From positions 7,194,001 through 7,258,000 of the forward strand of contig CM119372.1 of the NCBI GenBank assembly GCA_051294905.1: DNA of 64,000 nucleotides, read 5' to 3'. The notes beneath the pieces are model-generated. The model saw nothing but the letters and a program-made list of their open reading frames with translations, searched no databases and was not told the DNA's origin. Shown one piece after another: positions 9,594 to 62,969 of this stretch. This DNA is from Botryllus schlosseri (lineage: Eukaryota). The number at the start of each line of letters is the position of its first letter. The stretch's first letter is position 1. The position numbers were made by a program, and so were the translations under genes.

Positions 9594-9813
9594 TCTAATT
9601 TCAGTACGCTAAGAAATCATGTATCACTACACGATTAGAATCTTTAAAATTGTTACTCTGTTCATTTTTGAGTGCCCGTGCCATTGTGTTCGCCCGGCCC
9701 CAAACTACGAGCCCGCTCGCGGACGGCGGGAACCGCGGGATTATGCGAGAGACCTCCAGCGGATGACGCGAGCGTGCGAACTCGAATTGCCGCGTATCGT
9801 CTCCCGCTCTCGA

Positions 9814-29625: not shown

Positions 29626-29701
29626 ATGGCAAACGCTGGTACTGGTATTCAAAGAAATCTCAAGAAGACACAACCCTCTGATGATTTCAGCGTGATTGGA
29701 G
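29626..29701 (+). CDS. AZI2/TBKBP1-like: Adaptor gene exon 1 (MANAGTG...PSDDFSVIG), FIR/LIR-like motif
   Basis: ATG at 29626; donor G|gtgaga, phase 1. Confidence 0.6.
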
Positions 29702-32700
29702 GTGAGATATGGCTAGCCCATACTTTCAGATTCAGACGATGTTCACCGAAGCATTAGCTCTACGTTAACCGCAATCTTGAATCATTCAGGAAGCTCAGAC
29801 AGTTTACTTCGGAACACATCATGGCCAAAAGAAGATGACCGATCCATTAATAACGGTGTCAATTCTGGGTGAGAATACTTTCATTTTGTATGTTTTATGT
29901 TGGAATTTGCAAGGAATTTGGAAGTATGGAGAAAAGCGTTGCAATTTGTAAAATAATAATAGATAACTGAAGATATGTATTCAATTTATTGTGTTTGAAA
30001 TCAAAATGATACCGTAAACCGGGGTAACATTGGACAATTCTCAGCAATTCCGCTTTGTATCTTGGAAATGCTAGGGTGTAGGGGAGGCAAGTTTTGTGTT
30101 TTTTGGGTTCATGGAGCAAAGATTAGAATTAACTAATCCAAAATCTTCATATTCATAAATAAGTACCTTATTTTTGTAAATTATCCGTGTCCAAAGTTAC
30201 CCCTGCATGTGGGGTAACTTTGGACAGTGTAGTTTTCTGTATGCCTTTACACTCTATTGTTTATGAAACCCCGTAAATTAGGCTTATTTGGTAAGAGTTG
30301 ATGAGAGCAGTGACTAAAAATGAAACAAAATAGTATATGTCTGGCCTATTGCATGATTTTCAAATAATCCCCCTCAAACCCCCCCCCCCCCCCAAAAAAA
30401 AAAAAATTAGGTAGTTTATGAAGGCTAATGCCCCCTTATTCATCTCTTATCTCAATTTTCCATCATGCCTTCTCCAATTGGGACTTATAAATAACATATG
30501 GTGACAAGGGGTATCCCAATGGCGGTGTCAGCAATCGACAGCAAACATTAAGCATGTTAGCATGATTTATTACCGATTTCAAATATATTTGTTCTTGAAA
30601 AGATACATTTTCCCTTTCCTATGTCCTCTGATGGATATGTTTGTCGTAATTTACGATAACCCATATTCAGCAGGCGCATCTTTAGGAGTATGTGATAAGT
30701 TTTTCAAGTAGCTTACACCCGATTATAATCTCTCAGCTCATTGCCTACCCATTTTTTCGTATTTTGGCAAACTCTTAATTTATTAACCTTCTTAATCCAT
30801 TTTAAGAAGCCATCAGGCCGGTCATAAGGAATATAGTTGACGATACACTTTGACACAGATGAAGCAACCACTTTCCAGAGTTCTAAATATCACATTTTTC
30901 ACTGTCCAAAGTTGCCCTGTTCTGATAAAATTTGACGGGGTAACTTTGGACATCACATTTTCTTGTATTGATCTAAGGGTGAGCCCACTAAGATTTTTGC
31001 CATGGATTAAGACTACTTAGAGGTATCTGCTGCCAAGTTTTGAATCTATGAATCACATGCTATCTATGTTTGGTTGTAAGAAGTTTATTGGCCATAAATT
31101 TTGAGGAAATTGGCCCCCTCCATTAATTTATCAATGTTGGGTCAAGTTTATCTGGTAGTGAAATGAATCCACCTTTTATAGAGACTACTTGTAGTACTGT
31201 TGCCTCATGAAAAAGAATTGGACATCCAGCGATAACCCTTTTCCATCAATAACCATTTAAATCTTTTACTGCTTAGTGTCCAAAGTTACCCTTAAGTCCA
31301 AAGTTACCCCGGTTTACGGTAGCGTATATTGATAAATCACAGTTTTACGATCACAAGATCCAGTGATCCAGGAAAATTGACATAGTATATCTTCTATAAT
31401 GTTCAACATGTGTTGGCAGTCTGGACGTAGAATTGGAGTATTTGAATGGTACCGTTGAACGTTAATGAGGTGTTTACAGCTTTATCCTGTTCCCAATGCA
31501 TTAGTTACAATGTCAACAGCTACAGCTGGGCCTTCTTATGTAACTAACAGTCAAGTTTTTGGTTGCTCACTTATTTCCCCTACTTATCTGACCTTGTTTG
31601 CCGCCTAATTATGCGAATTTCTGTTCAACCCAACTGATAAAATGTAAAATTTCCACCAAGAAATTAGTAGATTGTTAATGGTGATTGCTTAAGCCAGGGG
31701 TCGCCAACTCAAAACAGGTCGCGGGCCACTTTTCAAATTTCCTACAGGCTGCATAGACTAACAACCATGTTTTTTAAACTTTACGTCAGTGTGCTCTCTA
31801 ACATTGGTGACGGGCATAGTTACCACAATAGAAATAATATCTTATTAACGAAATACAAATGCAACAAAAAATATTATTCTCATCACTTTCATTCTATTTT
31901 TAACCATAAGCGGCACACGATACCTGACAACACTTTTCAGCGACTAAAGAATCGATATTGGGGTTAGCTAGACACGATACTTGCTGGAAAGCAATCTCCC
32001 GGTAAAGTTTGATCTCGTGGGGAAGCCCCAAGTCGTTTTCAAAGCGACTTGGTCCTGTTGTTATCTGGGCCATTGCTCGTCAAGTCAATGCCCCCATTCA
32101 TATGAGGTAAATCTCCCTCCACGGGGTGCTGCTACTATAGCTGACGCCGTATCAGCTAGTAAGGAATAGTGATGTTAGGCACAAGAGAATAGCTTGTTTT
32201 GAACAGTGTTCAACAACAACAACAATTAATCAATTTTGGTATTTTAAAATGCTTTACTTGGCGTTCTTTCGAAATCTCCAATCAAGTCGCGGGCCACAAA
32301 ATATGACCACGAGAGCCGCATGCGGCCCGTGGGTCGCGTGTTCGTGACCCCTGGCTTAAGCACTATAAAGACACTGTTTATCAAACACGAACTACTAATG
32401 TTTTATCTACAAACCGAGCATGAACTTACATACATTGAATGCTTCGAAGTATAGGCCTACAGGGCGCATTAGTTTGTCACAAAATCTTTAGGGGCTCACC
32501 AAACCGAAAAAGTTTCAAGAGCACTGATCTAGAGAGTGTAACCGCTATGGAACTCTGACCTCCTAACACAAGACAGTTCATGAAGATGCACAGGGATGTC
32601 TCAAGACCCATCTAGATATCTTTGCTACCGTAAACCGGGGTAACTTTGGACAATTTTCAGCAATTCCGCTTTGTAACTTGGAAATGCTAGGGTGTAGGGG

Positions 32701-47700: not shown

Positions 47701-50700
47701 ATTTGTATCTTCTAAATAATTAAATGCCAAGGAAATATAGAAGAAATCTTGGTGCCAGGAGTTGTATAGACTACTCCGCAGATGAGATCCAAGCGGCACT
47801 AAGAATGGTCGAGGAAGGAATGTCGGAAAGATCTGTTAGTGAAATAACTGGTATTCCGAGAGGGACTTTACAGAATAAAAGGATAGGAAAGCATCCGAAA
47901 TCACCAGGAGGCCAGCCTGTTTTATCGTCAGATATGGAATAGCAGACCATTGTATGGTGCAGGCAGATTTTGGATTTCCTGTAGACAAATTTTGTCTTGG
48001 GAAAAGTATCTCGAGAGAGGAGGTTGCCAGGATAATTGCTATACAAGAGGAGAAGAAGGCTTCAAAACGGAAGAAAAAATGGTGACCAACCATCAACATC
48101 CCAACAAAAATGAGTTGAATTAGTCACAAGCACTCAACATGAAAGTCATGACGATTCTTCAGGAGCAGAAAATTTCCAAGAAGATTTATGTAATGATGTA
48201 GTTGAAGTGGGAGCATTAGAAAAGGAATTGAGAGCAAAACTAAAAGCTGGCCAGTAGGCCTATGTAATAATTAAGTATAAGGGAGAATTATTTCCAGGTG
48301 CTGTGGAGAGTACAGAACAGCATGGTGCAGAAGTCAGTGTTATGCAAAAATCAGGAAGCAATTGGAAATGGCCAATTCAAAAAGACCAGATATGCTATTA
48401 CTGGAAAGATATTAAACAGAGAATCTGCGACCCGGACTCACTGAATGCTCGTGAAATCTACAAAGTGAATGAACTTGAAGGGCATTGGCATTGAACTACT
48501 TTTTGTCATTGGTTTGTTTAATTTCGTTGTAATTTTGAAGATTTTTGTGGTTTTGCATTCAAATTAAAGTCTGAAAAATCACCATTGGTTGGATACTTCT
48601 TTTTTAAAAGACTGTAGATGGCCAAAGTCAACTTCTCAGCTTGTGTCATTGACAAATATGACTGCTAGATGTCCTGGAAGTACAAAAAATGGTGCTCGGC
48701 TAAAGACACCCCATTGCCGGGTGACTTTGGCCACCACAAAAAAATTGAAAAAAAATTATCAAAAACATGTGAATAATTTTCTTTTCCAAGTTTAATCCAT
48801 AGATCTAACCCTTCCGCCCATAGCAAAGTTGAAGAAGGCAGAAAATAATAACATATCATAAAATAATTCAACATTGAATGTGAAAAGTGGTACAAAGTCA
48901 CCCCGTGTTACGGTACCATACTCCAATAGGTTTTACTTACTCGGTTATCTTACTGAAGTGGCTGATGGTCATGTTTATAGATTACTTTCACCCCTAGTTA
49001 TCAGTTTTTTAAGGAAAACTACACTTTTTTATTTGGGAAAGTCAAAAGTAGCATAGGTATACGTTAGATTCACTTTTATGTGTCCAATTTTTTAAACATT
49101 TGGTTGAAATAGCCGAATTGTATCACAGTAACTGAATATATGCTCCTAGTTGTAGAGTCGTTAGTCAATTTGCCGCGTCCGTAGCGTAAATGCTCTTTGC
49201 AATTTCGAAAATAGCCTCCTCCAATTACTGTGAAAAGAGTAGGACCCCTCGTCCAATTCTAGGTTTTTGGGTATTAGTTACCTGAATACTTTTTTCAGAC
49301 CTGGATTTCTCTACTTATTCGTGCAGTAGTTTTACATGTTTTGAAAGTTGCTCCTTTGAAGAGTAATTGAGTAGAAATTTATGACGTCACATCGTCACTT
49401 CTACTGCTATTTGAGTAGGCCTACCAATGCCGACTACTTTGATCATTTCCGCTGCGTCGTGGCAATGTTGCACATCCACCGCCTAAATCGGTGGTTCTTG
49501 ACCCTTACGTTAATTTGCAAAACTTTGGCGGATCCCAAATTTTTGCTGAGTTCTCAAAACAAAAATCTACTATATTACACATCCGATACATTACTACACA
49601 ATACTGGTGCAAAAAAATGAACAGTGCATCAAGAACGGTGTTAAATGAGCTAAACCGTTAGAACACGATCTTCAAACAAAACTAAAACATTGTAATGAAT
49701 ATTTACTTCTAATCAGCGAGACTTGACCTCCTCTGAATCATTGGCTCAGCAAACTCCTCGGTTTCATTTTGTCAAAATCAATAACAAGCTGCTGACTTTT
49801 CCGGACAGGAATATCAGAAGAATCTGATACAGATCGCAGAGAAGAAACACAATGAGATGGAACAACGGATCGAGGAACTGGAACGAGGCCTGGCGAACGA
49901 GGTACGAATTTCGACGGAAGCAGTGCGATGCCTAGAATCCGTGCATGTTGTTTCCCGCATTTGTAGAAAAGCCTGACGGAGGATTTACGAATGCGCGAAC
50001 AAGACCGGGCCATAGCGCTGGAAGAGGAATTTCTTGTGAAGCAGGACACTTTCAAAACGAAAATCCGGGAACTTGAGGAGCATAATATTTCGTTGCGGGT
50101 GAAAATGACTTGTTGTGATATTTGTACAGTTAGAAAATTACCCCCCCTGATGGACCTGTAAAGCTTATTACTTGGATTAGTTTCGAACGTATGTTAGTTA
50201 GATATGCAGTACGGTATTTGTAACTTTTCATTTGCTTGTCTGCCTCTCATCCGGTTTAGACTGTGATAAAGATGACAATGGTGATGCGTGGTTCAATTGG
50301 TATTCGTTCTTCTTCCAAGCATGTGCCCTCTCTACTACCTCATCCTTCTGCTATATTCTGTAGCAACTATAGTTGCAATTTGTGATTTTGACTCGATAAA
50401 ATCGGTTGCACCGCATATATTTGAAATTTGATAATATATTAATATATTAATATTGAAATCAACCTGAATATTTTCGGCCGACACTCGTCATGGGTAATCG
50501 TCAGCAACATCGAAAGAAATGAAGCGAACATTGTGCAACAAATATCATGTATAATCCTCTGTTTCTCCTTCTCGCATTGCAACCTGATTCTTTTGTTTAT
50601 GACAGGAAGAGGTGGCCGTTTTAATATCAATGCAAACGGGAAACTCAAACCCTAGCGGTCCCGGTTCGAGGCCGTTTGTAAATGGAACTTCACCCAATCC

Positions 50701-53700
50701 CTCCACACAATATGAGAGGTTAGTTGCTATCTGCGAGGCACCCGTCTCGATATACGCCTTATTTTGTACAGTATATGCATATTGAAATAAACCCAAATGT
50801 TTTCGGCTGACACTCATCATGGGTAATCGTCAACAACTAGCGGAGAATTGTAGTTGTTGTAATCGTAATCATTACCCCTGACGATTGTGTGCTATTTTAT
50901 TGTATGTTGAAGTTCTGTACCTGCAAGAAGACTTTATTTTGTAATTTAGCAACTTGGACATTTCTACATTGGAAGAGGAGATTCGTAATCTCAATTCGGA
51001 GTTGAGCGACCTCAAGAAAAGGGCAAATGAACAATCGCAACTGCTAACAAGCTTATTCCAGAATACAAAACTTAGTACACTATTAGAAACGATGCCCGAT
51101 ATACCTCCATTCAGATCAGGTTTGCATAGTTCTCAGTGCTTGCTTTTCGCCGTGTAGTGTACATTATCATAAATTAAACCTGTATTCTGCGATTATATCT
51201 GGGGAATTGATACTGAGTTAACGTATTTGGAGTAAATATAGGGCTGGATTTGATGGAAATATCATGAATGAGTAGTGAGTTATATTGGTAGCAACCCGCA
51301 ACTGATATCTATTTTTAGACCCGCTTGGTTGTCTCTGATGATAAATGTTTAGGGGATTTCCCTGCCTGATACAATTCATAGCATAAGGACTTGTGTTGAC
51401 TGTTGATAGAAGCTTGAGACAAAGTGCGTATGCCTACAATGACACAAGTACTGAGCATCATTGTTCTCGGATGTGAATGTTTTCTGTGGGTAGTACATGG
51501 CCCATGGTAGGCCTTGGGTTTAGCGTCATTTGAAATTACTTATTTGTAAGTAATTCCGGATTGTACATTAGGGCTCTTCAAAAATGACTTTTTTCTCAAA
51601 TCGCACTGGCTACTTGATAAAATTGTTAGGTTACCTAATTTAAGCCTACACACCAAATTTGGTTCAATTCCAACCAGTGGAAGCGGAGTTATTGCTGTCG
51701 AAAAATTTGGATTTTAATAAAATAGTATTTACGGTGGGCACCACCATAATAAATAATTAAAGACATTGTCACCGTAAATACTATTTTATTCATAATCCAA
51801 ATTTTTCGACGGCAATAACTCCGCTTCCACTGGTTGGAATTGAACCAAATTTGGTGAACATCGTTTCTATAGACAACCCAACACTTTCATGGGGTGAACA
51901 GAAAATTTTCAAATTTTTTGGTATTTATTTTTATATAATAAATAGAAACTTTGTTCTCCTGTATTAATGCGGCTACTGCTTCGAATTGAACCAAATTTGG
52001 TATTTAGGCTTAAATTAGGTAACCTAACAATTTTATCAAGTAGCCAGTGCGATTTGAGAAAAACAGACATTTTTGAAGAGCCCTATTGTACATGTTCGTA
52101 CAAGCTACTCCTGGTAGTGGTATTTAATCTCCGTTACAAGTACCGGTAATGTATTTGATGATGTCATGCATTTAAGCTGATTGATTCACGATTGATCAAC
52201 ATTTCCTTCGGCAAAACATGAAATAGGCGTATAATTCAAAATTATCATCTCAAGTTCATTCATGAATCTGCAATTATTTTCATGAAAACGTAACTGTTTT
52301 GTTGTAAATTGAGTACGGTACAGTAAAGTTTTTGTGCTGCAGGCAGTGAAAAACCGTCCTTGTTATTATGACGATTATGGCGAAAGTTGTGAACTGTTGT
52401 TGCCTTCATTTGTTTGGTCTGTTTTAAATTTATCGCCTATTTAGTAGTGATATGTAGGTCATGGTAGGACTTGGCAAATTTGAGTTACCTTGACAGAGGT
52501 AAAGATTATGTGCAAATTCTGTCAGTATACCTCTGAAATTCACTGTGTCTGGATATACCACTCGTATTGTGAACCTAACATTTATTGGTTTACTTGATGA
52601 TATTTCGAGTATAATGGCCGCAGAGGTATTCAATCTTGTCACCAATGTAAGTTGTCAACTGACCATTACACTGGAAATACCACGACCATCGAAAGCAATT
52701 TTTTACCTGTATCTTCAGTTTTTCTTTCTCTCCATTAGCATATCGTGAAATCTGTTGATCATGAGTTCAAGTATCATATGTGCTGTTTGGATGATCACAA
52801 AAATTGAAATGATCCGACTGACCTAGTGTGTGGATTGTTGGACGATGGACATCCTTGTTGCTGTATACGTAGGCTATAGTCGTTGTTCATAATATGGCGA
52901 ATCGTTTAACTTCCGACTTCGCAAATTCTACCGATGATTCGCGCAATTTGCGTGAAAGCTATGTCGATTAGAAATATAATCTGTTGAAACAATCTTACCT
53001 AGATCCTTTGCCACAATGTCGCAATCCAGGGTTGTGCGTGCGTCAAAAAATCAACTCCTCGCCGAAGATTAGCAGGAGAGCTGCTAACAGCAACGAGTTG
53101 GCGGGCGGCAGCCATTCGCTATCTCGAAAAGACTCTCGCGAACTTATGTTGACCGAGGACGCGGCGTCAAAGCAAAAAATTTTGAAACTTCATGACGGGG
53201 GTCCTTCCATCATGTCCACCGAGGAATTCATCCGGTCGCTAGATCAGGAAGGAAATATTCAAGTGAGTTAGGTCACGGAGATATTGTAATCGTAAAGTTT
53301 ATAGCTCGGGCTGGGCGTGATATTCTGTGGAGTATGGAGTATTCATTCTAATGTTTTCAGCTAAGTAGTGATCGAGCTAGTTTTCTCTACTACCTAACTA
53401 AATTATACGCTCCTGGACACAGAGAGTTTATTTATCAACCATAATTCTAATTTCAATAGCCTATTTCCCACCTGTGAAAGCCTTGAAACCTCAATTGGTC
53501 GTATCGCAGCATACTGAATGTGTTGTACAAAGCAACGCACGTTAGTGTAAATGACATTACTGTGAAGTCGTGGTCAACTGACAGCATTGCTACGAAGTGC
53601 AATGAAATATGCAAGTTTGAAAAATACCTAAGTATCTTTAATGTGATGTATAACTGGCCTTATACCTAGGCTAGTTGTGGTAGCGTAAAGGATACATGTT

Positions 53701-56700
53701 TGAACTTTCTGCCATCTTTTATACTGTTATGACATCATGGGTGAATACATTCCATTATAGTTTAGCAATTTTTTTGACATTTGTATGTAATGCATACCCC
53801 AGGAATTGTCCGTATCTGCCTGTGCAACTGTGAGGAAATCTTTGTATGCCGAATAGGGTCAGGAATTTATGTGTGCAAAATTAATTCAGTACATGATGCT
53901 TGAGTTGAAATGAAATGAAGAGATATGCACTATTAGTTTGCCGATAATACCGAGTCTATCACGCCTTGAAAGAAATTGGTATCGGCCATTAGAGGTAAAA
54001 AAATTCGGCAATTTTTGTGACTTCATGGCGGTAGAGAGTCGGAGAACGATATAATCTAGCAAAATTGATGTCCGGCTGCAGCCTTTCTTGTTGAATTCAT
54101 GTGCAAAATTTGCAATGGCCGTATAGCTATTTAAATGAATGCCCTGAAGTTTTGGAAATGTGCATAAAGCTCGATGTTGTATCTTTTGAATACCAGATGA
54201 ATGTGTATCGGGATTACCGGTGTAGGTGCTAGTTATCTGTTTGATTTGTGTCGGATCAAAAAACTGATATCGGGTGGGCTTTGTTCATGACCTATAAAAC
54301 TCCTGATAGCCTATCTCATAATGTCACGTATACCAAATTCCAGTCGCATTTTCCGGGGATATACAATCGCATTATTATTTTGGACAGTAAATCAAGATGT
54401 GTCATTTCATTTCAGACCCACAGACCATTTCGGGCTAACCATCAACCCGACGGGGTCCCGCTCAATCCCGTGCTGGACATAGCGAGGGTCATTCATAATC
54501 CAGAAACGATACCTCCACGGTAGGTGTTGAAATACTCTGTCCCAGTACTTGCCTGTCAGCGTTGACGGTTGTTTTCAGAGGGCCAATTGTGATGCCGACG
54601 ACAACGGTGCCTACGCGTCAAAACGAACCTTCTCTCATTCTGTCCAAATCACTTGCCAACGGGGGAAGCAGAAAAGGTATTGTTGGAATTGTTGTGTTTG
54701 TCGTGACTAGCCCGGGTGCTTGAATCTGAATTGAGTATTAATTTCAATGATTCAATCGAGTATTGCGAGATGATCTTTTTAGGTGCTGTCATTTTAAATT
54801 CCTTGCCACTAATTTTATTATTTTATTATTATTTTCAACTACGAAAGCCTTGAAAGCTTGATTCCACAGCATACAAAATGTGTAGTACGTACAAAGCCAT
54901 ACCCGTTAGTGGAAATGACATTGAGACATACACAACTGTCAAGTAGTGATTAACCCGCAACATTATCACCAGGGTTGTAGCCAACTCGCACGGTTCCGAG
55001 TCACAAATCAATTTCACTTTTATAATTTTGACTCGAGTCGAGTCTAGTCATTTTCAATTCACCACCGAGTCACGGAGTAGAGAGTCATCGTGTTTTGACT
55101 CAAGTCCGAGTCCAAGTCTTTGTATGTTGACTGTTCAGTTCCGAGGTTATAACACATGAATCCTACTTTTCACAAGTCTGCTCGGTGATCTTGTATGCTT
55201 TGCATTCATAAGGCGGCATACTAATTTTCCTCACTTTAACAGTTTCTGGTAGCGTTTTCAAGTCCCACTACTGACAGACGAAATAACGGTAGTGCGATAA
55301 CTTTACTATTCTTCGAAATTGTATTGATATGCCTGTCTTGGTAAAGAAAATGACTCGAGTCAAGTCGAGTCACCAGAATATCGAGACCAGAGTGATTACA
55401 ATCACACAGTGCAGTGAAATTGGTATGGTGGAAATAGCACTAAATTATCCTCAATGTGATGTATATGGCATTCTATTTTGTGAGGTCGCATGAAAAGTGC
55501 ATATTTGAACGCGATTTATGTTATGCGAACCCATGGGATGAGACTTTGCAGCTTTCACCCGTGCTTCGGCGGTTTTCAGGATCGGTCTCTAATGTTATGG
55601 AGATGGAAAGCGACCAATTCTTCTCGTCGTCGTTAACAAGTACAGACACGCTGATTGTGTCGCCGGTATCTCAAATCCAGCCCAGCCGTATTCTCGGTGA
55701 GTGTGTTTGTGCAAGGACACGAATTTATAACCGTATGATGCTTACTTATCAGAAGTGGTCAGTGACAAAGTACTACTTCCACTTCTGGTTGAACAGATTT
55801 TAGGCAACGCTACTTTTCAAACTTTGGAATTTGAAAAGTATTAGAAAGTGCAAAGTAGCTTTGAGACGAGTTTGCATTGCTTTTATGTACGTGAAATCGT
55901 CTTCACGGTAACTGCCGAATGTATTTTCGATGATTTCAACTATTTGTGGCGTCATTTGTGATTTTCAAAGCAGCCACCACCGATTAACTGCAAAAAGCAT
56001 GTAAACCCTTGACCGCGCTTTTAAAATATAGTAATTTTTCCTCAGTCCCAACAGTTCGTGGCCCTTTTTTCCGAGTATCAGGACTGATAGATGAAATACC
56101 AATAACGTGGTTGGCCTAGCCTCGACTCATATGACTTGGTACAAGTTGAGTCTAAACAAAAATTGACTCAGGTCGAGTCGTTTTACGCATTTGATAAAAT
56201 GACTGGAGTCAAGTCGAGTCATCAAAAAATTGTGAATCGAGATATTACAACCATGAGTTTTGACACGTCTTGGAATTAGGTACTCCAACACGTAATCGTT
56301 ACTGTTATTCTACTTCCCAACTTTTACCACCTCCCGCTGTTGGCGCTATTTTCAGTTGCCGATAATACGCCTGGGCCTGGCTATCAAACTGCAGCGTCCC
56401 ATGAAATTGAGACGCCTTCAAGCCGGTACACGGAGATTTCGTCGGACGAAGACAACGAGTCCGGGGAATTCACGCGGCCCGGAAAGAGCGGATTTAAGCC
56501 AAAGGAATTTGTTGTCCCAACGGTAATTAGTTCAATGTTCATTCTTCAGTATTGATGCCGGCAACTGAGTCTTGATAATGGCCGGCCACGCTAGCGACAT
56601 CGGAATATGTTGCTAGCATGCGATAAAATACGGACGCTATTTGAGTATAATGCCAGATTGGTATTACACATTAAAGGTAATTTTGTGTTTTTCCAACCAT

Positions 56701-59700
56701 ACCTCTTTCATTGCGCTTTGTAACAGCTGCTCGGTTAATTAAGACTTCCGAGTTATATGTAATTTACATTTTAACCCATACCCAGATTTTAACTACATGT
56801 TTTCTTCAGTATAACTGACATTATGTTATCATGTTCCGTTCGATCTTATGAATGGTGTACATTTCAACTTTTCAATTCCCTTATTATGTACAATGTACCA
56901 TGTTATAGCGACGGGTACATAAATATTCGACCTGGAATTGAATCAATCAAATACCATAAACCCGGGTATCATTGGACTTGAGGGTAAATTTGGACACTAA
57001 GCAGTAAAACATTCAAACGGTTATTGATGGAAAAGGGTGGCCGCTGGATTTCCAATTCTTTTTCATGAGGCGAAAGTACCACAAGTAGTCTGGATAAAAG
57101 ATTGATTCATTTCACTACCAGTTAAACTTGACCCAACATCGATAAATTAATGGCGGTGATCAATTTCATCATAATTGATGGTTAACAAAATTCTTATAAA
57201 CATTGATAGTATATGAGCCATAGATTCAAAACTTGGCACCAGATACCTCCAAGTAGTCTTGATATAGAGCGTAAAGGCATAGAAAATACTGCATCGTCCA
57301 AAGTTATCCCACATGCTGCGGAAACTTTGGACACGAATAATAAAAAAAATAGGGTAGCTACATGACCATGAGGATTTTGGATTAGTTTATTCTAATCTTT
57401 GCTCCATATCCCCAGAAAAACACAAAACCCCCTGCACTCTAGCATTTCCAATATATGAAGCAAAATTGTAAAAAATTGTCCAAAGTTACCCTCGTTTACG
57501 ATAGTCGATTTTGCTCTGCTCTCTGCCTACAGTCTACATATGAGCATGTGACACTGAGACACGTGAGTTAGTTTTAGGGTTGTAGAGTCACGTGGTCGAG
57601 TGTCACATGCCCAAATGTCATTTTTCGTGGTGTCGCCGGCTGAAATGTTGGGCAACCACTTAAGACATGTTTGGCGTCTATAAGAGCTCGTCGTATGTAG
57701 CCTCTTGCGCGCTACAAATATATTAGATGTTGGCAATAGGTTTGAAACGTTGTATTTGGCAAATGCCTCTCTGCAAACTTTCGTAGCTATCTTTCAACCT
57801 GTTTGTACGGTTCGCGAGGCAAGTCTGTTTGTTTTGGTGCAGCCGCCTGTCTGTTTTTTCAATAGGGGATTTCCGTTGGTTAAAATTAGTTAAGCTAGCA
57901 CTGTACAACACATTGGTTTCGGGTTATCTGTAGGCGTTGCTAAGAGTGCTTAGTTGCTTAGCTAAGATTAATACGTGATAGGCCACTTGAAAACTTTAGC
58001 GGTGGGACAAATATTTTTATAAAATACAAGTTTATGGATTTCATGTTATGAAAATAAGCAAAGTCACAATATTTGATTGAAGAATTGGGATAGCGGATAT
58101 TGACTTTCTTGATGCGCATTGATGGTCAGTAAAGGGGCTACTTCTACTTTTTCAGAGTCCTCGAGGAGGTTTCCCTTCTCACACTACTTAGTCAAGTTCT
58201 TATGTTTTAGATTACTTCCTCTTTATCAGTTTTTTAAGCAAAACCACCTCCTTTTACGTTTTGGAATTCGAAAAATATAAAGTGGATTTGAGGTTATGCA
58301 GGGGTCGCCAACTCAAACGGGTCTTGGGCCACTTTTCAAATTTCGTAGAGGCCGTGGGCCGCATGAATTCAATATTAAGATCAAATAGCCACGCGGTTTA
58401 ATAACCACGCTTTTAAAACTTTACGTCAGTACGACGCTGTGCTAACTTGGGCGACAGGCATCGTTACTACAAACGAAGTAATATTGTATTACAGAAATAC
58501 AAATACGAAACGAAAAATATCATGATCATCAATTTCATTCTGTTTTCAACTATGAGGGATATCTGACAACGCTTTTCAGCAACTAAGGAATAGATATTGG
58601 AGCTAGTGAGACACGGACACGGTACTAGCTAAAATACTATCTCCTCGAAAAGCATGATCTTGCGAAGAAGCAGTAAGCCCATTTTAAACGTTTCGGTATT
58701 GGCCATTGACCGTCAAGGCAATATGCCCAGCCCATTCAAGCAGCTGATTTGGAATGCTGTTGCCATCGCCGAAACCATTTCAGCTGGTGACGAAGAGTGA
58801 TGTTGGGCACAGGAGAGTAGCTCATTTTCAAGCAACAACAACAATACTTCGAAACTGAAATCAACGTTCAGCATTACAAAATGCTTTGGTTAGCGTACTT
58901 CTGAAATCAGATTGCGGGCCGCAAAATCTGAACTTGCAGGCTGCGGTGTTGGTGACCCCTTCTTTAAAGAGTGAATCGTCATAAGGACAGCGGGCAATAT
59001 AGTCCCTTTATCATTGTATTTGAATTTATAATTCAATGTATTGTTTTTTAAATAATATTTTCTAGGATATTTGTAATGTCATCTTGTGTTAGTCGTGAAG
59101 GTGCATCTTGCTATTTGGAGAGTAACCACGCGATTACTCGGCCAAATCTACGTTTTGAAACTACTCTCTCAAGAACTTTGCGGGCCGTTCATTTATCACT
59201 AACGTATGTTTTGCAAATTGCTATTCCTAATCAAATAGAAATTTGCGGCATTACTTGTACCTCTACTCGAGTAGACACGCCGACTGCTTTGACCTTACTC
59301 GTCGTTATTGGTGATTCAGGTGGAACGACCATCCCCCGACCAAGGCACATCACGGAAAGCGTTTCAAGACGTCGGCTACCGGGCTCCGGCCGCGCCCACT
59401 AATACTAGACCGGCTATTCGCGCCCGACCTGAGGTAAAATAATAGGTCCAGTGTAGGCCTACCTTCTTACCCGCACCCTATAACTCCCGTACGACGTCGA
59501 GGGATTGCGGACTGTGTGCAACTGCAGTGGGTGGCACAGTTTGACAGCTAGAACAATTCCAACTTTTCCAAATTAGATTAGATTTGGAATTATAGCTACA
59601 CTGTTTTCCAAATTTAGAATTATTGAATTCGCAAAAACATGAAATTGAATTGAATTGTGAGTTAGGAATGAAATGCAAAAAGCCATATCAAGTTGGAGTT

Positions 59701-61294
59701 CATTCCCATAAGCATGGACAATGGCAAGTACACCTAGTTTGGCTGTTTTCGCTCTATATGGCTATAGATAGATCACTAACCTACGGATAGATACGTCACT
59801 CGCAAGCAGTGTCTCCTATTGACGAGCGATCTAAGTACCCGCGAAACAATAACTTCATATTGTTAATTTATTCGCTAAAAGCTTTTCGACTAACTCTCAT
59901 CAGTAGCGAACGTTAGTGATGGGGTGAATCCAATTCGAAATGTAAGAACTATTTTGTCTGTATGACGTAATAATAACAAAAACAAACAACTAGTAGACGG
60001 GCAAGATACGGTAGCTACGAAAGCCGATTCTCTGTCGCCAGAAGGAACGCCTCTACACTCTTGGAATATTTCATTAATGTTATGTGTTGTGTTTTCGGTT
60101 ATTTATAACCGAATATGTACTCGTTAACGTTTGTTTTGTACCGTTACTACCGTATCTTGCCCGGCTACTAGTTGTTTGTTTTTGTTATTATTACGTCATA
60201 CAGACAAAATAGTTCTTACATTTCGAATTTGATTCACCCCATCACTAACGTTCGCTACTGATGAGAGTTAGTCGAAAAGCTTTTAGCGAATAAATTAACA
60301 ATATGAAGTTATTGTTTCGCGTTATTCTGAAGTTCTGTACCACAAATAACTTGTTCAAATCTAAGTAGCGTAATTGGTAGTGCTATAGCTGGCGACCCGA
60401 GCGCTGAAATTTAATATCGTTGGTCTTGATCAAAAGCTAGTGTTGCACTGATTCCGAAAATACAAATTAAAATCTTGTCAGGGCAATGGAACCACGTCTA
60501 GACATCCCCTAAAGTCAGAAAATCGGCATCGTCTAACAATGGCTGCGCCGCAACACAATGAACATAACAATGGCCCTTTTGGCTAAGCAACTGTTCGGAA
60601 CAATGCCGATTTTAAGACTTTTAAGGGCTGTTCTGATGTGGTTCAATTGCCCTGCCACGATTTTAATTTGTATACTGGGAATCAGTGTGACATAGCTTTC
60701 GATAAAGACTAGTTGCATTAAATTTCAGCGCTCGGGTTGCCAGCTATAGCACTGCCAATTACGCTAGTGTTAGATTGCTCAGCAATAAGAGAGACTGCTT
60801 GCCCAAGCGTAACGCCGGGTTTTGCGGGAGTTACGTATCTATCCGTATGTTAGTAATCTGTAATACAGCTCTCCTGTAGCATTTTGAAGGAAAGCCATAA
60901 ATTATATTTCGCTCCAATTAGACAACTACAATTATCTAGTTGCCCTAGTCTGGTAGAGAGGTGTTGATGACATGGTATTTGTCGTGACGTCATATAGGAT
61001 CTTATGTAATACGGGTGCCGAGTTTGATATTGATTGGTGGTATAACACGGGAGATATCCGGTCTGGAAAATAGAGTACACTATACTAAAGCAATACTTTG
61101 TCCCGTTTTCTCAATCCACACGTTTACAGACGAGCGCGCCCGCCGGACACCGTCAATATCCCGAAGGCCAGCAAGACGGCGGCTGTCCCATGTGCTCGCA
61201 GGTGTTCACGGAGGAATGGTCGATGGAGCGAAAGACCAGACACATTAACGGGCATTTTAGCGACGACGAAAACGGCCTTCTTTCGTTCGAATAA
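29626..61294 (+). CDS. AZI2/TBKBP1-like: TBK1-adaptor family protein (AZI2/NAP1-TBKBP1/SINTBAD-TANK-like), 16 coding exons, 739 aa: join(29626-29701,29730-29868,42369-42522,43973-44137,46540-46692,49809-49901,49967-50098,50606-50718,50950-51119,53003-53262,54416-54519,54579-54676,55580-55696,56356-56522,59320-59433,61130-61294)
   Basis: All introns are GT-AG and phase-consistent, giving 2220 nt with a single terminal stop. Motifs versus recalled human sequences: DDFSVI (cf. DDICIL); ASHYALATAYDRVSKKLAEAEKRN (cf. AZI2 ASHFALVTAYEDIKKRLKDSEKEN); VNQAWEAY (cf. VNKAYHAY, TANK LNKAYEAF); a TBD-like helix; C-terminal CPMC-x15-HINGHF zinc finger. The frame is open upstream of the ATG, so further 5' exons are possible. 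Confidence 0.85.
29730..29868 (+). CDS. AZI2/TBKBP1-like: Adaptor gene exon 2 (DSDDVHRS...NNGVNSG)
   Basis: Acceptor tttcag; donor GG|gtgaga; phase 2 matches exon 3. Confidence 0.65.
30012..31319. mobile_element. Non-autonomous pogo-like (Tc1/mariner superfamily) element, copy 1
   Basis: TA|CCGTAAACCGGGGTAAC ... GTTACCCCGGTTTACGG|TA; internal copies of ggggtaactttggaca. Confidence 0.92.
31695..32353. mobile_element. hAT-Charlie-like MITE
   Basis: caggggtcgccaac / gttcgtgacccctg; TSD gcttaagc; a diverged copy lies at 58299-58960 and an inverted fragment at ~25680-25742. Confidence 0.9.
32628..33891. mobile_element. Non-autonomous pogo-like element, copy 2
   Basis: Same TIRs and TA TSD; collinear with, but visibly diverged from, 30012-31319. 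Confidence 0.92.
34097..35046. mobile_element. hAT-type MITE with ggttcacgttc repeats
   Basis: TIR tagggatggtgtgaac / gttcacaccatcccta; TSD atatatct/atatatat. Confidence 0.88.
35078..37653 (+). mobile_element. Defective hAT-Charlie/Buster-type transposon, copy A
   Basis: TIR cagtgtttctcaacc / ggttgagaaccactg; transposase C-terminal remnant TYLCESGFSTL..KFSNRLQPEDDIRC..LTNTIPEFNSLVKRDQRQGSH* at ~37320-37487. Confidence 0.92.
36506..36979. mobile_element. hAT-type MITE nested in copy A (also 40740-41213 in copy B)
   Basis: TIR caggaccgtaac / gttacggtcctg; TSD cacgtatg/cacgtagg. Confidence 0.88.
37821..41887 (+). mobile_element. Defective hAT-Charlie/Buster-type transposon, copy B (contains a Harbinger insertion)
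   Basis: Near-identical to copy A apart from 38069-39559. Confidence 0.92.
38069..39556. mobile_element. Non-autonomous PIF/Harbinger element
   Basis: TIR gggtggagcccaatt / aattgggctccaccc; 3-bp TSD TTA; clean empty site in copy A (ggacTTAgtttt, ~35323). Confidence 0.92.
42369..42522 (+). CDS. AZI2/TBKBP1-like: Adaptor gene exon 3 (ASHYALATAYDRVSKKLAEAEKRNLQLR)
   Basis: tattttag acceptor, gtaagt donor; AZI2/TBKBP1 N-terminal coiled-coil signature. Confidence 0.92.
43973..44137 (+). CDS. AZI2/TBKBP1-like: Adaptor gene exon 4 (DSVNQAWEAYNEKCKECQQLREEL)
   Basis: tttctag acceptor, gtaagt donor; AZI2/TANK-like motif. Confidence 0.9.
45187..46316. mobile_element. hAT-Charlie-like MITE
   Basis: TIR caggggtgggcaaact / agtttgcccacccctg; TSD ctttagat. 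Confidence 0.92.
45352..45652. mobile_element. hAT-Charlie-like MITE, nested
   Basis: cagtggttcccaaact / tatgagaaccactg; TSD ttataagg/ttctaagg. Confidence 0.83.
46540..46692 (+). CDS. AZI2/TBKBP1-like: Adaptor gene exon 5 (coiled coil)
   Basis: atttcag acceptor, gtgagc donor, phase 0-0; an alternative acceptor at 46548 is possible. Confidence 0.85.
47211..48913 (+). mobile_element. Internally deleted pogo-like transposon
   Basis: TA|CCGTAACACGGGGTGACTTT ... AAAGTCACCCCGTGTTACGG|TA; HTH-psq N-terminus MPRKYRR...YSADEIQAALRMVEEGMSERSVSEITGIPRGTL (47724-47942) and C-terminal YVIIKYKGELFPG...WKWPIQKD (to 48494); DDE core missing. Confidence 0.93.
49809..49901 (+). CDS. AZI2/TBKBP1-like: Adaptor gene exon 6 (EYQKNL...GLANE)
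   Basis: AG/GT bounded, phase 0-0, coiled-coil composition. Confidence 0.87.
49967..50098 (+). CDS. AZI2/TBKBP1-like: Adaptor gene exon 7 (KSLTEDLR...HNISLR)
   Basis: ttgtag acceptor, gtgaaa donor, phase 0-0. Confidence 0.85.
50606..50718 (+). CDS. AZI2/TBKBP1-like: Adaptor gene exon 8 (EEVAVL...STQYES)
   Basis: gacag acceptor, gttagt donor; supplies the phase 0-to-2 change needed for exon 9. Confidence 0.82.
50950..51119 (+). CDS. AZI2/TBKBP1-like: Adaptor gene exon 9, TBK1-binding-domain-like helix
   Basis: LEEEIRNLNSELSDLKKRANEQSQLLTSLF versus recalled AZI2 TBD MQHAYWELKREMSNLHLVTQVQAELLRKLK. Confidence 0.85.
51569..52085. mobile_element. hAT-type MITE with long TIRs and an internal ~85-bp-arm palindrome
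   Basis: tagggctcttcaaaaatg / catttttgaagagcccta; TSD ttgtacat; internal inverted repeat at ~51652-51856. Confidence 0.9.
53003..53262 (+). CDS. AZI2/TBKBP1-like: Adaptor gene exon 10 (DPLPQCRN...EGNIQ)
   Basis: cctag acceptor, gtgagt donor, phase 1-0. Confidence 0.85.
54416..54519 (+). CDS. AZI2/TBKBP1-like: Adaptor gene exon 11
   Basis: tttcag acceptor, gtaggt donor, phase 0-2. Confidence 0.85.
54579..54676 (+). CDS. AZI2/TBKBP1-like: Adaptor gene exon 12
   Basis: ttttcag acceptor, gtattg donor, phase 2-1. Confidence 0.83.
54970..55398. mobile_element. Degenerate MITE with gagtc/gactc repeats (related pieces at ~56120-56250 and 63770-64000)
   Basis: cagggttgta start, gactcgagtcgagtc arrays, degenerate right end. 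Confidence 0.55.
55580..55696 (+). CDS. AZI2/TBKBP1-like: Adaptor gene exon 13
   Basis: ttttcag acceptor, gtgagt donor, phase 1-1. Confidence 0.85.
56356..56522 (+). CDS. AZI2/TBKBP1-like: Adaptor gene exon 14
   Basis: ttttcag acceptor, gtaatt donor, phase 1-0. Confidence 0.85.
56954..57501 (-). mobile_element. Shorter, inverted deletion derivative of the 30012/32628 pogo-like family
   Basis: Degenerate TIRs with flanking TA; reverse-complement homology to both ends of 30012-31319. Confidence 0.85.
58299..58960. mobile_element. Diverged copy of the 31695-32353 MITE family
   Basis: caggggtcgccaactcaaac... start, collinear internal homology, ggtgacccct end; TSD not conserved. Confidence 0.8.
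59320..59433 (+). CDS. AZI2/TBKBP1-like: Adaptor gene exon 15 (VERPSP...RARPE)
   Basis: attcag acceptor, gtaaaa donor, phase 0-0. Confidence 0.8.
59871..59910 (-). ncRNA. Minimal type-I hammerhead ribozyme motif (antisense copy)
   Basis: Reverse complement of 60251-60290. Confidence 0.65.
60251..60290 (+). ncRNA. Minimal type-I hammerhead ribozyme motif (sense copy)
   Basis: ttcgcta CTGATGA gagttagtc GAAA agct T T tagcgaa: 7-bp stem I, intact core, 2-bp stem II, palindromic 4-nt stem III, followed by AATAAA. Confidence 0.68.
61130..61294 (+). CDS. AZI2/TBKBP1-like: Adaptor gene last coding exon, UBZ1-type C2H2 zinc finger
   Basis: CPMCSQVFTEEWSMERKTRHINGHF...* versus recalled TANK CEFCQAVF...LRHLNSHF and TBKBP1 CPLCQLGF...IKHIDSHL. 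Confidence 0.9.
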   Translation, partial: TSAPAGHRQYPEGQQDGGCPMCSQVFTEEWSMERKTRHINGHFSDDENGLLSFE

Positions 61295-62969
61295 CGCGTT
61301 GCATTACTATAAGCCGGGGCGCGAGTGTGCATTCAGTTGATTCGTTCCGTGACTGAAGTGGTCGTCTTTTGATTGGGATCTGCGATTCGTGCGCTCGCGG
61401 ATTACTGGGCGCTTGATTGATGAATGCATTGTTACTAGGGCTGCGCAAATTTGAGTACCTGAATGATTTGATTCTGAACGGGGGGGGGGGGGGGTATTCG
61501 GGGCGTAGTCGAAGTATCACTCATGAGTTTAAAACAGTATGAATGATGTTGTGGAAAGTTAAAATACGCACCTCTTATGACACTGCACAAAGAATATCAT
61601 GTTCTACATCACATTAAAGATAATTTGGTATGTTTTCCCTCGTACCTATTTCATTTCACTTTGTGACAACGCTGTGGTCATTTCCACTAACGTACATAGC
61701 TTTGTTCTACATGTTTCGTGTGGGGCGATACGACCCATGGAGGTTTCAAGGCTGCCACAGTGGGAAATAGCGTCGAAATAACAATTCTCGTAGCCCCGGT
61801 AAAAAAGCGTACAAGTTCAGTACTCGATTGAGATCGTAGTACGCGAATCATTGTGCTCAGCCCAAGTGTCGATGTTGTTAAGTTGCGTAATCGCGGAACA
61901 GCCGGGTTGTCAGTGGTGTGTGTGACGTGACTGGTTACGCACTGGCGTGCTCACGTAATCAAGCGCATCTTTGATAAATCAGGTTTGGGATTTTGAAGAT
62001 ACTACAGTAACGGGTTTATTTCGCTGTGATGTTTTCTCATCTCTGTGCGTTCAAACCGCGGGTAGTTGATTACCTTTCGACCGCGCGGTCATCGACCCCA
62101 GTGGTTCGGCGTCGCTCCGGGACCTCTGTCAAACACCATACAGTGGTGCGATGTAATTGCTTGTACGGACAGCGGCCTGTCCGAAAAATTGCGGCGGAAA
62201 GTCTACGGCGCTGAAGCAGAGGCGCCGATCTCCGTTCGCTGTTGTCGTTTCTTCAACGCGGTCTTCGCGCACAGACTCGCTTTGCGTATCACCTTTACTT
62301 CTTCGTCGCGTGAAGTCTGCGATTTTTATCCGTTCTATATTACTATTCTTGCTACCAATGCTCTCCGCTTAATTTACGATTCTAATAAATATTTCATTTT
62401 TCTCGTACGATTGCGGGGATGATCTGTTAGAGCTCAGGTGTTTGGTACGTTGCTGAACTACAGTATTTTACCGCAACGTGCCGTGTCGGGGTTGGGGGTG
62501 TAAGACCAGTATTATAATCCAGTTGCGTTGCTACTGGGTTGCTTAGTAGCCTACATCACCATGTCTTTAGGCGTCATTATGGAGTCACACACTTCTTAAG
62601 CAACTGGCAGACGAAAATGTTCGTGATATGCTTAAAGCGGGAGGCAGCAACCTTTTTAGCTCTGCGGACAGGTTTTTAAATGAATTTTTTTTTCCGGCCG
62701 GTTTTCAAAAAAATAATCAACATCGAAAATCTATTGCAGCTCCAACACTATAAATAAGGTCACTACAGGGAGCCCAGTAGGGCAGTAACACTTATGTTTA
62801 GATAAAAGGCCCAGCAGGATTTATGGGGATCTTCGTTCAAAATTTGATCAATGCGCATATTATACCTGGGTAAGAATTGAAGGTACTGTGTTTATTCACC
62901 GATTGTTTTGCTTAGAGAATATGAAATTGCATCTACTGAATATTCCATTGAATTAGGAATATCATATAT

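What the first reader, a model, noticed from the sequence alone, without database searches (positions are those of the whole stretch)
29626..61294. Invertebrate single-gene TBK1 adaptor uniting AZI2/NAP1, TBKBP1/SINTBAD and TANK hallmarks
Seen: 16 phase-consistent exons give a 739-aa protein that the ORF track shows only as scattered fragments. In order it has DDFSVI, ASHYALATAY plus a coiled coil, VNQAWEAY, a long coiled coil, a TBD-like helix, PLPQC, a low-complexity tail and a C-terminal CxxC..HxxxH finger. Established: vertebrates split these modules among three paralogues. AZI2 and TBKBP1 carry the FIP200-binding DDI(C/S)IL and SHFAL helix, TANK carries the PIQCT TRAF-binding motif, and TANK and TBKBP1 carry the C-terminal UBZ1 finger. 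Inference: this is a pre-duplication pro-orthologue, implying a TBK1-FIP200-NDP52/TAX1BP1-type xenophagy and innate-signalling hub in an invertebrate.
Basis: partly seen in the sequence, partly recalled or inferred. Interest (0 to 1): 0.85.

Follow-up and report, generated by a model that had tools for sequence, protein, structure and literature searches.

The report
Tunicate SINTBAD/NAP1-like TBK1 adaptor gene
A real, expressed 16-exon gene of a sea-squirt-like animal encodes that genome's only detectable counterpart of the vertebrate TBK1 adaptor proteins NAP1 and SINTBAD; it is an expected but so far unnamed member of a known family, not a new kind of protein.

Summary
The gene is real. Spliced transcript contigs from three runs join exons 3-16 through GT..AG introns. 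Exons 1-2 are supported by orthologues only. My model has 16 exons and 719 aa, not 739.

The closest named relatives are an "uncharacterized protein" of Styela clava (48% identity, end to end) and a misnamed Ciona protein. The genome is therefore most likely an ascidian tunicate.

Supported:
- An N-terminal acidic F-x-x-I motif of the FIP200/ATG8-binding type.
- A helix matching human AZI2/NAP1 residues 36-65 (PDB 5Z7G, E 2e-4).
- A C-terminal UBZ1 finger (TAX1BP1 UBZ, E 1.5e-5; Pfam PF18112 at its cut-off).
- A single locus in this genome.
- A TAX1BP1/NDP52-like SKICH gene and a TBK1-like gene elsewhere in the genome.

Not supported:
- The "TBD-like helix" is a predicted single helix in the right place, but it matches no TBD profile.
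- PLPQC fails every TRAF-binding consensus. Styela and Ciona orthologues do carry such a motif at that spot.

No phylogeny with vertebrate paralogues could be built. Verdict: a new member of a known family with SINTBAD-like architecture. The "unites TANK" claim is only partly supported.

The parts
29626..29701 (+). Exon 1 (coding part, from the ATG). Encodes aa 1-25 with the acidic F-x-x-I motif DDFSVI (29680-29697), a FIR/LIR-type motif.
   Evidence: First ATG of the open stretch and donor GAG|GTGAGA. Aligns with the N-termini of the Styela and Ciona orthologues (GDFSLL, EEFSLL, EEYSII). Not RNA-checked.
29790..29868 (+). Exon 2 (79 nt), aa 26-52, a Ser-rich acidic linker.
   Evidence: A phase-fitting AG..GT open segment. 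14 of 25 residues are identical to Styela P0006. Not RNA-checked.
42369..42522 (+). Exon 3, aa 52-103. Its helix ASHYALATAY... (42415-42504) is homologous to NAP1 residues 36-65, the part that dimerises and binds SKICH.
   Evidence: Acceptor and donor are used in the spliced contigs. PDB phmmer top hit is human AZI2 5z7g_C/5z7l, E 1.9e-4. The orthologue profile gives E 1.6e-4.
43973..44137 (+). Exon 4, aa 104-158, containing VNQAWEAYNEKCKECQQLREEL (start of the long coiled coil).
   Evidence: Junctions 42522>43973 and 44137>46540. 34 of 55 residues identical to Styela.
46540..46692 (+). Exon 5, aa 159-209, coiled coil. This is the best-conserved exon.
   Evidence: Junctions. 43 of 51 residues identical to Styela. 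83% identity in the genome search.
49809..49901 (+). Exon 6, aa 210-240, coiled coil.
   Evidence: Junctions 46692>49809 and 49901>49967.
49967..50098 (+). Exon 7, aa 241-284, coiled coil.
   Evidence: Junctions.
50606..50718 (+). Exon 8, aa 285-322, an S/T/P/G/N/Q-rich linker.
   Evidence: Junctions 50098>50606 and 50718>50950. Composition.
50950..51119 (+). Exon 9, aa 322-379. Contains a conserved single helix (about 50951-91) in the position of the TBK1-binding domain.
   Evidence: Junctions. AlphaFold2 predicts helix 4-37 plus 39-47 with mean pLDDT 83.6. Seven helix-core columns are invariant in 4 tunicate sequences. No PF12845 match.
53003..53262 (+). Exon 10, aa 379-465. Starts with D-PLPQC-RN (53005-53019), a degenerate TRAF-type motif. 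The rest is a low-complexity tail.
   Evidence: Junctions 51119>53003 and 53262>54416. Motif test. Five letters differ from the window in all three contig runs.
54416..54519 (+). Exon 11, aa 466-500, tail.
   Evidence: Junctions.
54579..54676 (+). Exon 12, aa 500-533, tail.
   Evidence: Junctions 54519>54579 and 54676>55580.
55580..55696 (+). Exon 13, aa 533-572, tail with the conserved island SSSLTSTDTLIVSP.
   Evidence: Acceptor. The donor is inferred from the contig length and GT site. Alignment.
56356..56522 (+). Exon 14, aa 572-627, tail with the conserved islands ISSDEDN and PKEFVVP.
   Evidence: Donor 56522>59320. The acceptor is inferred. Alignment.
59320..59433 (+). Exon 15, aa 628-665, tail with the conserved RKAFQD. 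It also has an unconserved PDQGT (a Px(Q/E)xT match at aa 633).
   Evidence: Acceptor. The donor is inferred. Motif scan.
61130..61294 (+). Exon 16 (coding part), aa 666-719 plus the stop codon. Contains the UBZ1-type finger C-x2-C-x15-H-x3-H (61184-61255).
   Evidence: Contigs cover 61128-61597. PF18112 scores 22.3 bits in hmmscan and 23.3 bits in the genome scan, against a cut-off of 23.2. TAX1BP1 UBZ in PDB, E 1.5e-5.

Best explanation
This is an expressed, single-copy gene of a tunicate-like genome. It encodes a 719-aa orthologue of the vertebrate NAP1(AZI2)/SINTBAD(TBKBP1) TBK1-adaptor family, built like SINTBAD.

Domain order:
- An N-terminal acidic F-x-x-I motif of the FIP200-claw/ATG8-binding type.
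- A helix that dimerises and docks on the SKICH domain of the genome's TAX1BP1/NDP52-like receptor.
- About 180 aa of coiled coil.
- A short disordered linker, then one conserved helix where the TBK1-binding domain lies in vertebrates.
- A roughly 300-aa low-complexity tail.
- A C-terminal UBZ1 zinc finger.

Likely function: a dimeric scaffold that links a SKICH cargo receptor and ubiquitin to autophagy initiation and to the TBK1-like kinase.

Shown here: gene structure and expression; homology of the N-terminal helix and the finger; single locus; presence of SKICH and TBK1-like genes.

Inferred: all binding events, above all TBK1 binding. Also inferred is that the gene is the undivided counterpart of NAP1 and SINTBAD, and probably of TANK.
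For: Gene structure and expression:
- Spliced contigs from 3 runs join exons 3-16, and a few raw RNA-seq reads cross junctions.
- The frame is open across all 16 exons.

Orthologues:
- End-to-end alignment with Styela clava LOC120342046 (47.8% identity), a Logan transcript protein P0003 (46.7%) and a Ciona protein P0007 (30.6%).
- Every exon has a counterpart in the Styela protein.

N-terminal helix:
- Exon 3's top PDB hit is human AZI2 33-75 (E 1.9e-4). A profile of three orthologues gives the same top hit (E 1.6e-4).
- Of the 15 NAP1 residues that the paper names as SKICH contacts, 9 are identical, 3 are conservative changes and 3 are changed.

FIR/LIR motif:
- DDFSVI fits the acidic psi-Theta-x-x-Theta core of the NAP1 FIR, with F at the first hydrophobic place. 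It is kept in 4 of 4 tunicate sequences.

UBZ1 finger:
- TAX1BP1 UBZ in PDB, E 1.5e-5.
- PF18112 scores 23.3 bits in the genome scan and 23.8 bits in the Styela orthologue, both above the 23.2 cut-off.

Family-level similarity:
- The ESM Atlas top three clusters for the Ciona orthologue are all TBKBP1 (0.96, 0.96, 0.95). They carry TBD and Zn-C2H2_12.
- The literature describes NAP1, SINTBAD and TANK as homologous, with the layout HD, single-helix TBD, disordered CTD, and a zinc finger in SINTBAD and TANK.
- Exon 9 folds as one helix.

Genome context:
- P0006 hits only this locus (7 of 7 matches).
- One SKICH gene is present (106 bits; PDB NDP52/TAX1BP1 E about 1e-32). Most of the TAX1BP1 residues that contact NAP1 are kept in it.
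- TBK1_CCD1 exons lie on contig 13.
Against: - No PF12845 (TBD) match at E<=10 in the exon 9 frame, in P0003, P0006 or P0007. The genome scan did not pick this gene up. Exon 9 also has no PDB or Atlas hit.
- The homology evidence to vertebrates is short (30 aa and 27 aa) with moderate E-values.
- The Atlas result is for the Ciona orthologue, not for this protein.
- No tree with vertebrate AZI2, TBKBP1 and TANK was possible.
- Exons 1-2 and their junctions lack RNA proof.
- PF10377 (the FIP200 claw family) gave no hit in this genome.
- The first FIR hydrophobic residue is F, not the I/L/V of the published core.
- A diverged second adaptor such as a TANK-like gene could escape the exon-by-exon genome searches.
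Confidence: 0.75

Rival explanations
1. One reading: this one protein also works like TANK. Its PLPQC would be a functional TRAF-binding site, so the gene unites all three vertebrate adaptors in function.
For: - A TRAF-type motif sits just after the helix in relatives. Styela P0006 has V-P-V-Q-C-S-E-E and P0003 has I-P-V-Q-C-N-E-E, close to TANK's SVPIQCTDKT.
- Ciona has S-P-I-E-E-S, the major Px(Q/E)E motif, at the aligned place.
- TANK and SINTBAD share the C-terminal finger.
Against: - In this gene, with Q as P0, P-2 is L, P1 is C, P2 is R and P3 is N. None of the three consensus motifs is met.
- The only strict match in the protein (PDQGT, aa 633) is not conserved, and about 0.4 such matches are expected by chance (my estimate from the composition).
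- The Ciona alignment at this spot differs between the two MAFFT runs.
- No TRAF binding was tested.
Confidence: 0.15
2. The gene is the pro-orthologue of NAP1 and SINTBAD only. TANK would be an older, separate lineage that tunicates lost or that escaped detection here.
For: - The parts with sequence-level matches to vertebrates are the NAP1/SINTBAD-type N-terminus and the finger.
- The Atlas hits are TBKBP1 clusters.
- The genome searches cannot see diverged, intron-split genes.
Against: - No second UBZ1 or TBD exon was found in the genome.
- The one weak TBD-like hit on contig 3 has no gene around it.
- The literature treats the three adaptors as homologous with one modular plan.
- As I recall, untested here, the three human genes lie beside the three Tbr1/Eomes/Tbx21 paralogues, which suggests a common origin by genome duplication.
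Confidence: 0.25
3. The protein is a SKICH-receptor and ubiquitin scaffold that no longer binds TBK1 or never did. The conserved helix of exon 9 would have another partner.
For: No TBD profile, PDB or Atlas match for the helix in any of four tunicate sequences.
Against: - The helix is conserved among tunicates, with 7 invariant core columns.
- It is a single helix.
- It sits after the coiled coil at about the same distance as the SINTBAD TBD, which starts near residue 280.
- A TBK1-like gene exists in the genome.
Confidence: 0.2
4. Not a gene: chance open frames or a pseudogene.
For: None found.
Against: - Spliced contigs in 3 runs with canonical introns.
- A 719-codon open frame.
- Orthologues in three other tunicate data sets.
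Confidence: 0.01

Closest known systems
Human SINTBAD / TBKBP1
   Same: - Same order of modules: N-terminal FIP200-binding region and SKICH-binding coiled coil, long dimerising coiled coil, central single helix, disordered tail, C-terminal zinc finger.
- TBKBP1 clusters are the nearest Atlas neighbours of the Ciona orthologue.
   Different: - No match to the TBD profile.
- The tail is longer.
Human NAP1 / AZI2
   Same: - Residues 36-65 align with aa 68-97 (PDB 5Z7G/5Z7L, E 1.9e-4). S37, H38, A40, L41, A44, Y45, L52 and E56 are kept.
- An N-terminal acidic hydrophobic-x-x-hydrophobic motif like the NAP1 FIR at residues 6-16.
   Different: - NAP1 has no C-terminal zinc finger and is much shorter.
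- The motif here has F where NAP1 has I, which makes it a canonical LIR-type motif.
Human TANK
   Same: C-terminal zinc finger, central helix and disordered tail. Styela orthologues carry P-V-Q-C-(S/N)-E, much like TANK's P-I-Q-C-T-D.
   Different: - TANK is not reported with the FIR or SKICH-binding N-terminus.
- This gene's PLPQC fails the TRAF consensus.
TAX1BP1 UBZ2 / Pfam PF18112 (autophagy receptor zinc finger)
   Same: Same C-x2-C-x15-H-x3-H spacing and flanking residues (CPMCS..F......H....HF).
   Different: Here there is a single finger on the adaptor. The genome's own TAX1BP1/NDP52-like 903-aa open frame shows none.
Styela clava LOC120342046 (uncharacterized protein) and Ciona intestinalis UniRef entry named 'Polyamine-modulated factor 1-binding protein 1'
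   Same: Orthologues. They align over the full length, including both termini.
   Different: 47.8% and 30.6% identity. Styela keeps a TANK-like PxQC motif. Ciona is shorter (490 aa) and lacks most of the tail.

Membership tests
NAP1/SINTBAD (AZI2/TBKBP1) TBK1 adaptors | N-terminal FIP200-binding region: acidic residues followed by hydrophobic-x-x-hydrophobic (NAP1 residues 6-16). | tested here: met
   DDFSVI at aa 19-24. Kept as GDFSLL, EEFSLL and EEYSII in three orthologues. The motif definition comes from passages of PMC8363153. This is a motif-level match only, and F replaces I/L/V.
NAP1/SINTBAD (AZI2/TBKBP1) TBK1 adaptors | N-terminal coiled-coil helix homologous to NAP1 33-75, which dimerises and binds SKICH domains. 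| tested here: met
   phmmer against PDB: 5z7g_C is the top hit, E 1.9e-4. The orthologue profile gives E 1.6e-4. Of 15 named contact residues, 9 are identical and 3 conservative.
NAP1/SINTBAD/TANK | TBK1-binding domain (Pfam PF12845, TBD). | tested here: not met
   No hit at E<=10 in the exon 9 frame, in P0003, or in P0006 and P0007. The genome scan gave 2 weak hits elsewhere and none here. A conserved single helix does exist at the expected place.
NAP1/SINTBAD/TANK | [quoted passage not shown] | not testable with these tools
   This needs biochemistry. A TBK1-like gene is present.
SINTBAD and TANK | C-terminal UBZ1-type zinc finger (PF18112). | tested here: met
   22.3 bits in hmmscan and 23.3 bits in the genome scan, against a cut-off of 23.2. 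The Styela orthologue scores 23.8 bits. TAX1BP1 UBZ in PDB, E 1.5e-5, with identical Cys/His spacing.
TANK | TRAF-binding motif Px(Q/E)xT or Px(Q/E)xxD (SVPIQCTDKT) after the TBD. | tested here: not met
   In D-P-L-P-Q-C-R-N, P-2 is L, P2 is R and P3 is N. Motif definitions come from passages of PMC6125299. Near-matches occur in the two Styela-type orthologues and a major motif in Ciona.
NAP1/SINTBAD/TANK | Orthology shown by a phylogeny with the vertebrate paralogues. | not tested
   No vertebrate full-length sequences could be obtained.

The most novel reading that the evidence does not exclude
The ancestral chordate TBK1 adaptor was an all-in-one protein. It had a FIR/LIR, a SKICH-docking helix, a TBK1-binding helix, a TRAF-binding motif right behind that helix, and a UBZ1 finger. 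Vertebrates later partitioned these among NAP1, SINTBAD and TANK. In this tunicate, the only detectable UBZ1 finger in the genome sits on the adaptor and not on the SKICH cargo receptor. Ubiquitin sensing would then be done by the adaptor, the reverse of the vertebrate division of labour.
Probability: 0.25. Interest if true: 0.6.

Novelty: new member of a known kind. Interest (0 to 1): 0.4.

Why it matters
Vertebrates have three partly redundant TBK1 adaptors. A search listing abstract (PMC11576971) notes that mice show overt disease only when TANK and AZI2 are both lost.

A chordate with one adaptor gene, one SKICH receptor gene and one TBK1-like gene would allow a single knock-out test of the ancestral function of this module. 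It would also show which modules (FIR, SKICH docking, TRAF motif, UBZ) came first.

The public relatives are unnamed (Styela) or misnamed (Ciona), so annotation can be improved. I found no paper on a tunicate or other invertebrate member. Those searches cover only open PMC and bioRxiv.

Tried and rejected
Protein searches:
- The search for homologous proteins with exon 10 (0 of 73 candidates) and exon 3 (0 of 72) found nothing.
- The exhaustive HMMER scan with exon 3 gave 4 proteins at E<=0.001. One (P0003) is a relative. The other three are repeat proteins matched in repeat stretches.

RNA runs:
- No RNA holder was listed by the look-up of sequencing runs. The spliced contigs were seen only after laying the runs.

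TBK1 binding:
- Complex prediction of the exon 9 helix with a putative TBK1 C-terminal exon (L012:755-928, minus strand) scored 0.06, which is no verdict.
- I picked that exon from a recalled likeness to the human TBK1 C-terminus. It has no PDB match, so it may not be the right domain.

TBD helix:
- The PDB search with exon 9 gave only coiled-coil noise, and the search with exon 4 gave only one insignificant hit (E 3.2).
- The Atlas search with exon 9 gave no usable hit.
- The 20-bit PF12845 hit on contig 3 lies in 20 kb without coding-like neighbours, so I take it as chance.

FIP200:
- PF10377 (the FIP200 claw family) gave no hit at E<=10. This is no evidence of absence in an exon-by-exon search.

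Synteny:
- The only T-box hits on this contig lie about 1.25 Mb away. By my recalled signature they look Tbx1/10-like, not Tbr/Eomes-like, so the result is uninformative.

Other:
- The search of earlier findings returned nothing.
- The TRAF review PMC3697994 gave no motif definition.
- The paper that defined the TBD (PMC1914091) is not held.

Full report
**Observation.** The region is eukaryotic, with short open stretches separated by long introns. The window lies in a 495.5-Mb genome of 219 contigs.

**Gene model and expression.** I laid four runs on window 42100-61600. One spliced contig per run (X5 2387 nt, X2 2026 nt, X4 1665 nt) joins a chain of exons through GT..AG introns.
- Eleven junctions are listed outright.
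- Two more (55696>56356 and 59433>61130) follow exactly from the contig coordinates. 598 nt lie between the pieces ending at 53262 and starting at 61128. My exons 11-15 sum to 600 nt, minus the 2-nt overlap at the last joint.
- The raw RNA-seq run X23 shows 2, 2 and 4 junction reads at three of the joints.
- The genome holds no intron-less copy, so the spliced form is RNA-derived.
- The contigs continue 216-258 nt upstream of the acceptor at 42369.

Exon 1 (29626-29701) does not fit that acceptor's phase directly. A 79-nt AG..GT segment at 29790-29868 restores the phase. Its translation aligns with the orthologues, 14 of 25 residues identical to Styela. The two 5' junctions remain without RNA proof, because only one lay of 20 kb was allowed.

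**Relatives and organism.** Word-based searches with single exons found nothing.
- An exhaustive HMMER scan with exon 3 found one true relative, P0003, an 876-aa protein from a transcript contig.
- P0003 led to [quoted passage not shown] (P0006). It also led to a Ciona intestinalis protein that UniRef calls "Polyamine-modulated factor 1-binding protein 1" (P0007).
- My spliced model aligns end to end with them at 47.8%, 46.7% and 30.6% identity. Every exon has a counterpart.
- The genome is therefore most likely an ascidian tunicate, nearer to Styela than to Ciona. This is an inference from this one protein.

**Module by module.**
- N-terminal motif. DDFSVI fits the acidic psi-Theta-x-x-Theta core given for the NAP1 FIP200-binding region at residues 6-16. 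That region also binds ATG8 proteins (passages of PMC8363153). F occupies the first hydrophobic place. The motif is kept in all four tunicate sequences.
- Exon 3 helix. Its top PDB hit is human AZI2 33-75 from the NAP1-TAX1BP1/NDP52 SKICH complexes (E 1.9e-4). A profile of the three orthologues gives the same top hit (E 1.6e-4). Of the 15 NAP1 residues named as SKICH contacts in bioRxiv 10.1101/264085 (passages), 9 are identical, 3 are conservatively changed and 3 differ.
- Exons 4-7. These are rich in E/K/R/D/L/Q (59%). They give only weak coiled-coil-type Pfam hits. They are the best-conserved part.
- Exon 9. It is predicted as one long helix with seven invariant core columns among tunicates. 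It follows the coiled coil after a 38-aa linker, much as the SINTBAD TBD starts near residue 280 (passages of PMC13582825). It does not match the TBD profile PF12845, nor do the three orthologues. It has no PDB or Atlas hit.
- PLPQC. The TRAF motifs are Px(Q/E)E, Px(Q/E)xxD and Px(Q/E)xT, and TANK has SVPIQCTDKT (passages of PMC6125299). With Q as P0, this gene has L at P-2, R at P2 and N at P3, so none is met. The Styela-type orthologues have (V/I)-P-V-Q-C-(S/N)-E-E. Ciona has S-P-I-E-E-S at the aligned place in one of the two alignments.
- Last exon. It carries C-x2-C-x15-H-x3-H with the spacing of TAX1BP1 UBZ2 (E 1.5e-5). It sits at the Pfam PF18112 cut-off of 23.2 bits: 22.3 and 23.3 bits here, and 23.8 bits in Styela.
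- Whole-protein check. The Atlas places the Ciona orthologue next to three TBKBP1 clusters that carry TBD and Zn-C2H2_12, with scores 0.96, 0.96 and 0.95.

**Genome context.**
- The Styela protein hits only this locus (7 of 7 matches).
- PF18112 hits only this gene's last exon (1 match from 42 scored candidates).
- A single SKICH match (106 bits) lies in a 903-aa uninterrupted open frame on contig 10. Its SKICH domain matches human NDP52 and TAX1BP1 at E about 1e-32. It keeps F14, V55, G56, W57, E98, F99, Q101, C103, A114, P117 and R121 of TAX1BP1, residues named as NAP1 contacts. That open frame ends without a zinc finger.
- Three exons matching TBK1_CCD1 above the cut-off lie on contig 13.
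- No FIP200 claw (PF10377) was detected. In an exon-by-exon search this does not show absence.

**Mechanism.** The most likely reading is a dimeric scaffold.
- The exon 3 helix pairs and docks on the SKICH domain of the TAX1BP1/NDP52-like receptor. Both sides of that interface are conserved here.
- The N-terminal motif engages the FIP200 claw and/or Atg8.
- The finger binds ubiquitin.
- The exon 9 helix recruits the TBK1-like kinase.

The first three steps rest on sequence homology to solved human complexes. The last rests on position and architecture only. I put TBK1 binding at about two in three.

**Comparison with known families.** The architecture is that of SINTBAD. It is more than NAP1, which has no finger, and different from TANK, which has no FIR or SKICH-docking N-terminus on record. 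Two defining features were tested and not met in this gene: the TBD profile and TANK's TRAF motif. I therefore file it as a NAP1/SINTBAD-family member by its termini and layout, not as a demonstrated TBD protein. I do not accept that it carries a TANK hallmark. The Styela and Ciona motifs keep open the idea that the ancestor had a TRAF site behind the helix.

**Novelty and limits.** This is a new, unnamed member of a known family in a lineage where one would expect a single counterpart. As I recall, tunicates split off before the vertebrate genome duplications.
- I found no paper on an invertebrate member, within open PMC and bioRxiv only.
- The key missing test is a phylogeny with vertebrate paralogues.
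- A structure-based binding test gave no verdict and is listed only under things tried.

Noticed in passing
window 35322-37653 and 39556-41887; also 30007-31321 and 32623-33893: Intron 2 holds a 2.3-kb direct repeat at 99.7% identity, 4234 bp apart, and a second 1.3-kb pair at 88.6%. This may be a recent tandem duplication, transposon copies, or an assembly duplicate.
   Followed up: partly
window 47724-47939 (+), inside intron 5: An open frame with an HTH_psq domain (23.6 bits, above the cut-off). It is probably the remnant of a pogo/Tigger-type transposase. Contigs of the runs cover the area with many mismatches.
   Followed up: partly
L013:223-2934 (G000 contig 10, 22058122-22060833): The genome's only SKICH match lies in a 903-aa open frame without introns. 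It is TAX1BP1/NDP52-like and ends in a basic tail with no zinc finger. The only PF18112 finger found in the genome is on the adaptor.
   Followed up: partly
window 44704-46656, 51214-52515, 54469-55770, 59677-60327: Intronic stretches have very high summed contig depth (hundreds to thousands) and many loose ends in all runs. This looks like highly repeated, transcribed elements.
   Followed up: no
window 53038, 53040, 53193, 53194, 53208 (exon 10): All three contig runs differ from the window at these five places. At 53038 and 53040, so do 4 of 4 raw reads. The first two together change one codon (Val to Ile by my reading), which suggests allelic or strain variation in the low-complexity tail.
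   Followed up: no
G000 contig 2, 8502674-8506063 (L016): A T-box gene lies about 1.25 Mb downstream of the adaptor gene. By a recalled sequence signature it looks Tbx1/10-like.
   Followed up: partly
window 9106-9594 (-) and 1-29000 generally: Upstream of the gene there are only repeat-like open frames without Pfam matches, including low-complexity runs at 17.4-19.4 kb. No neighbouring gene was recognised.
   Followed up: partly
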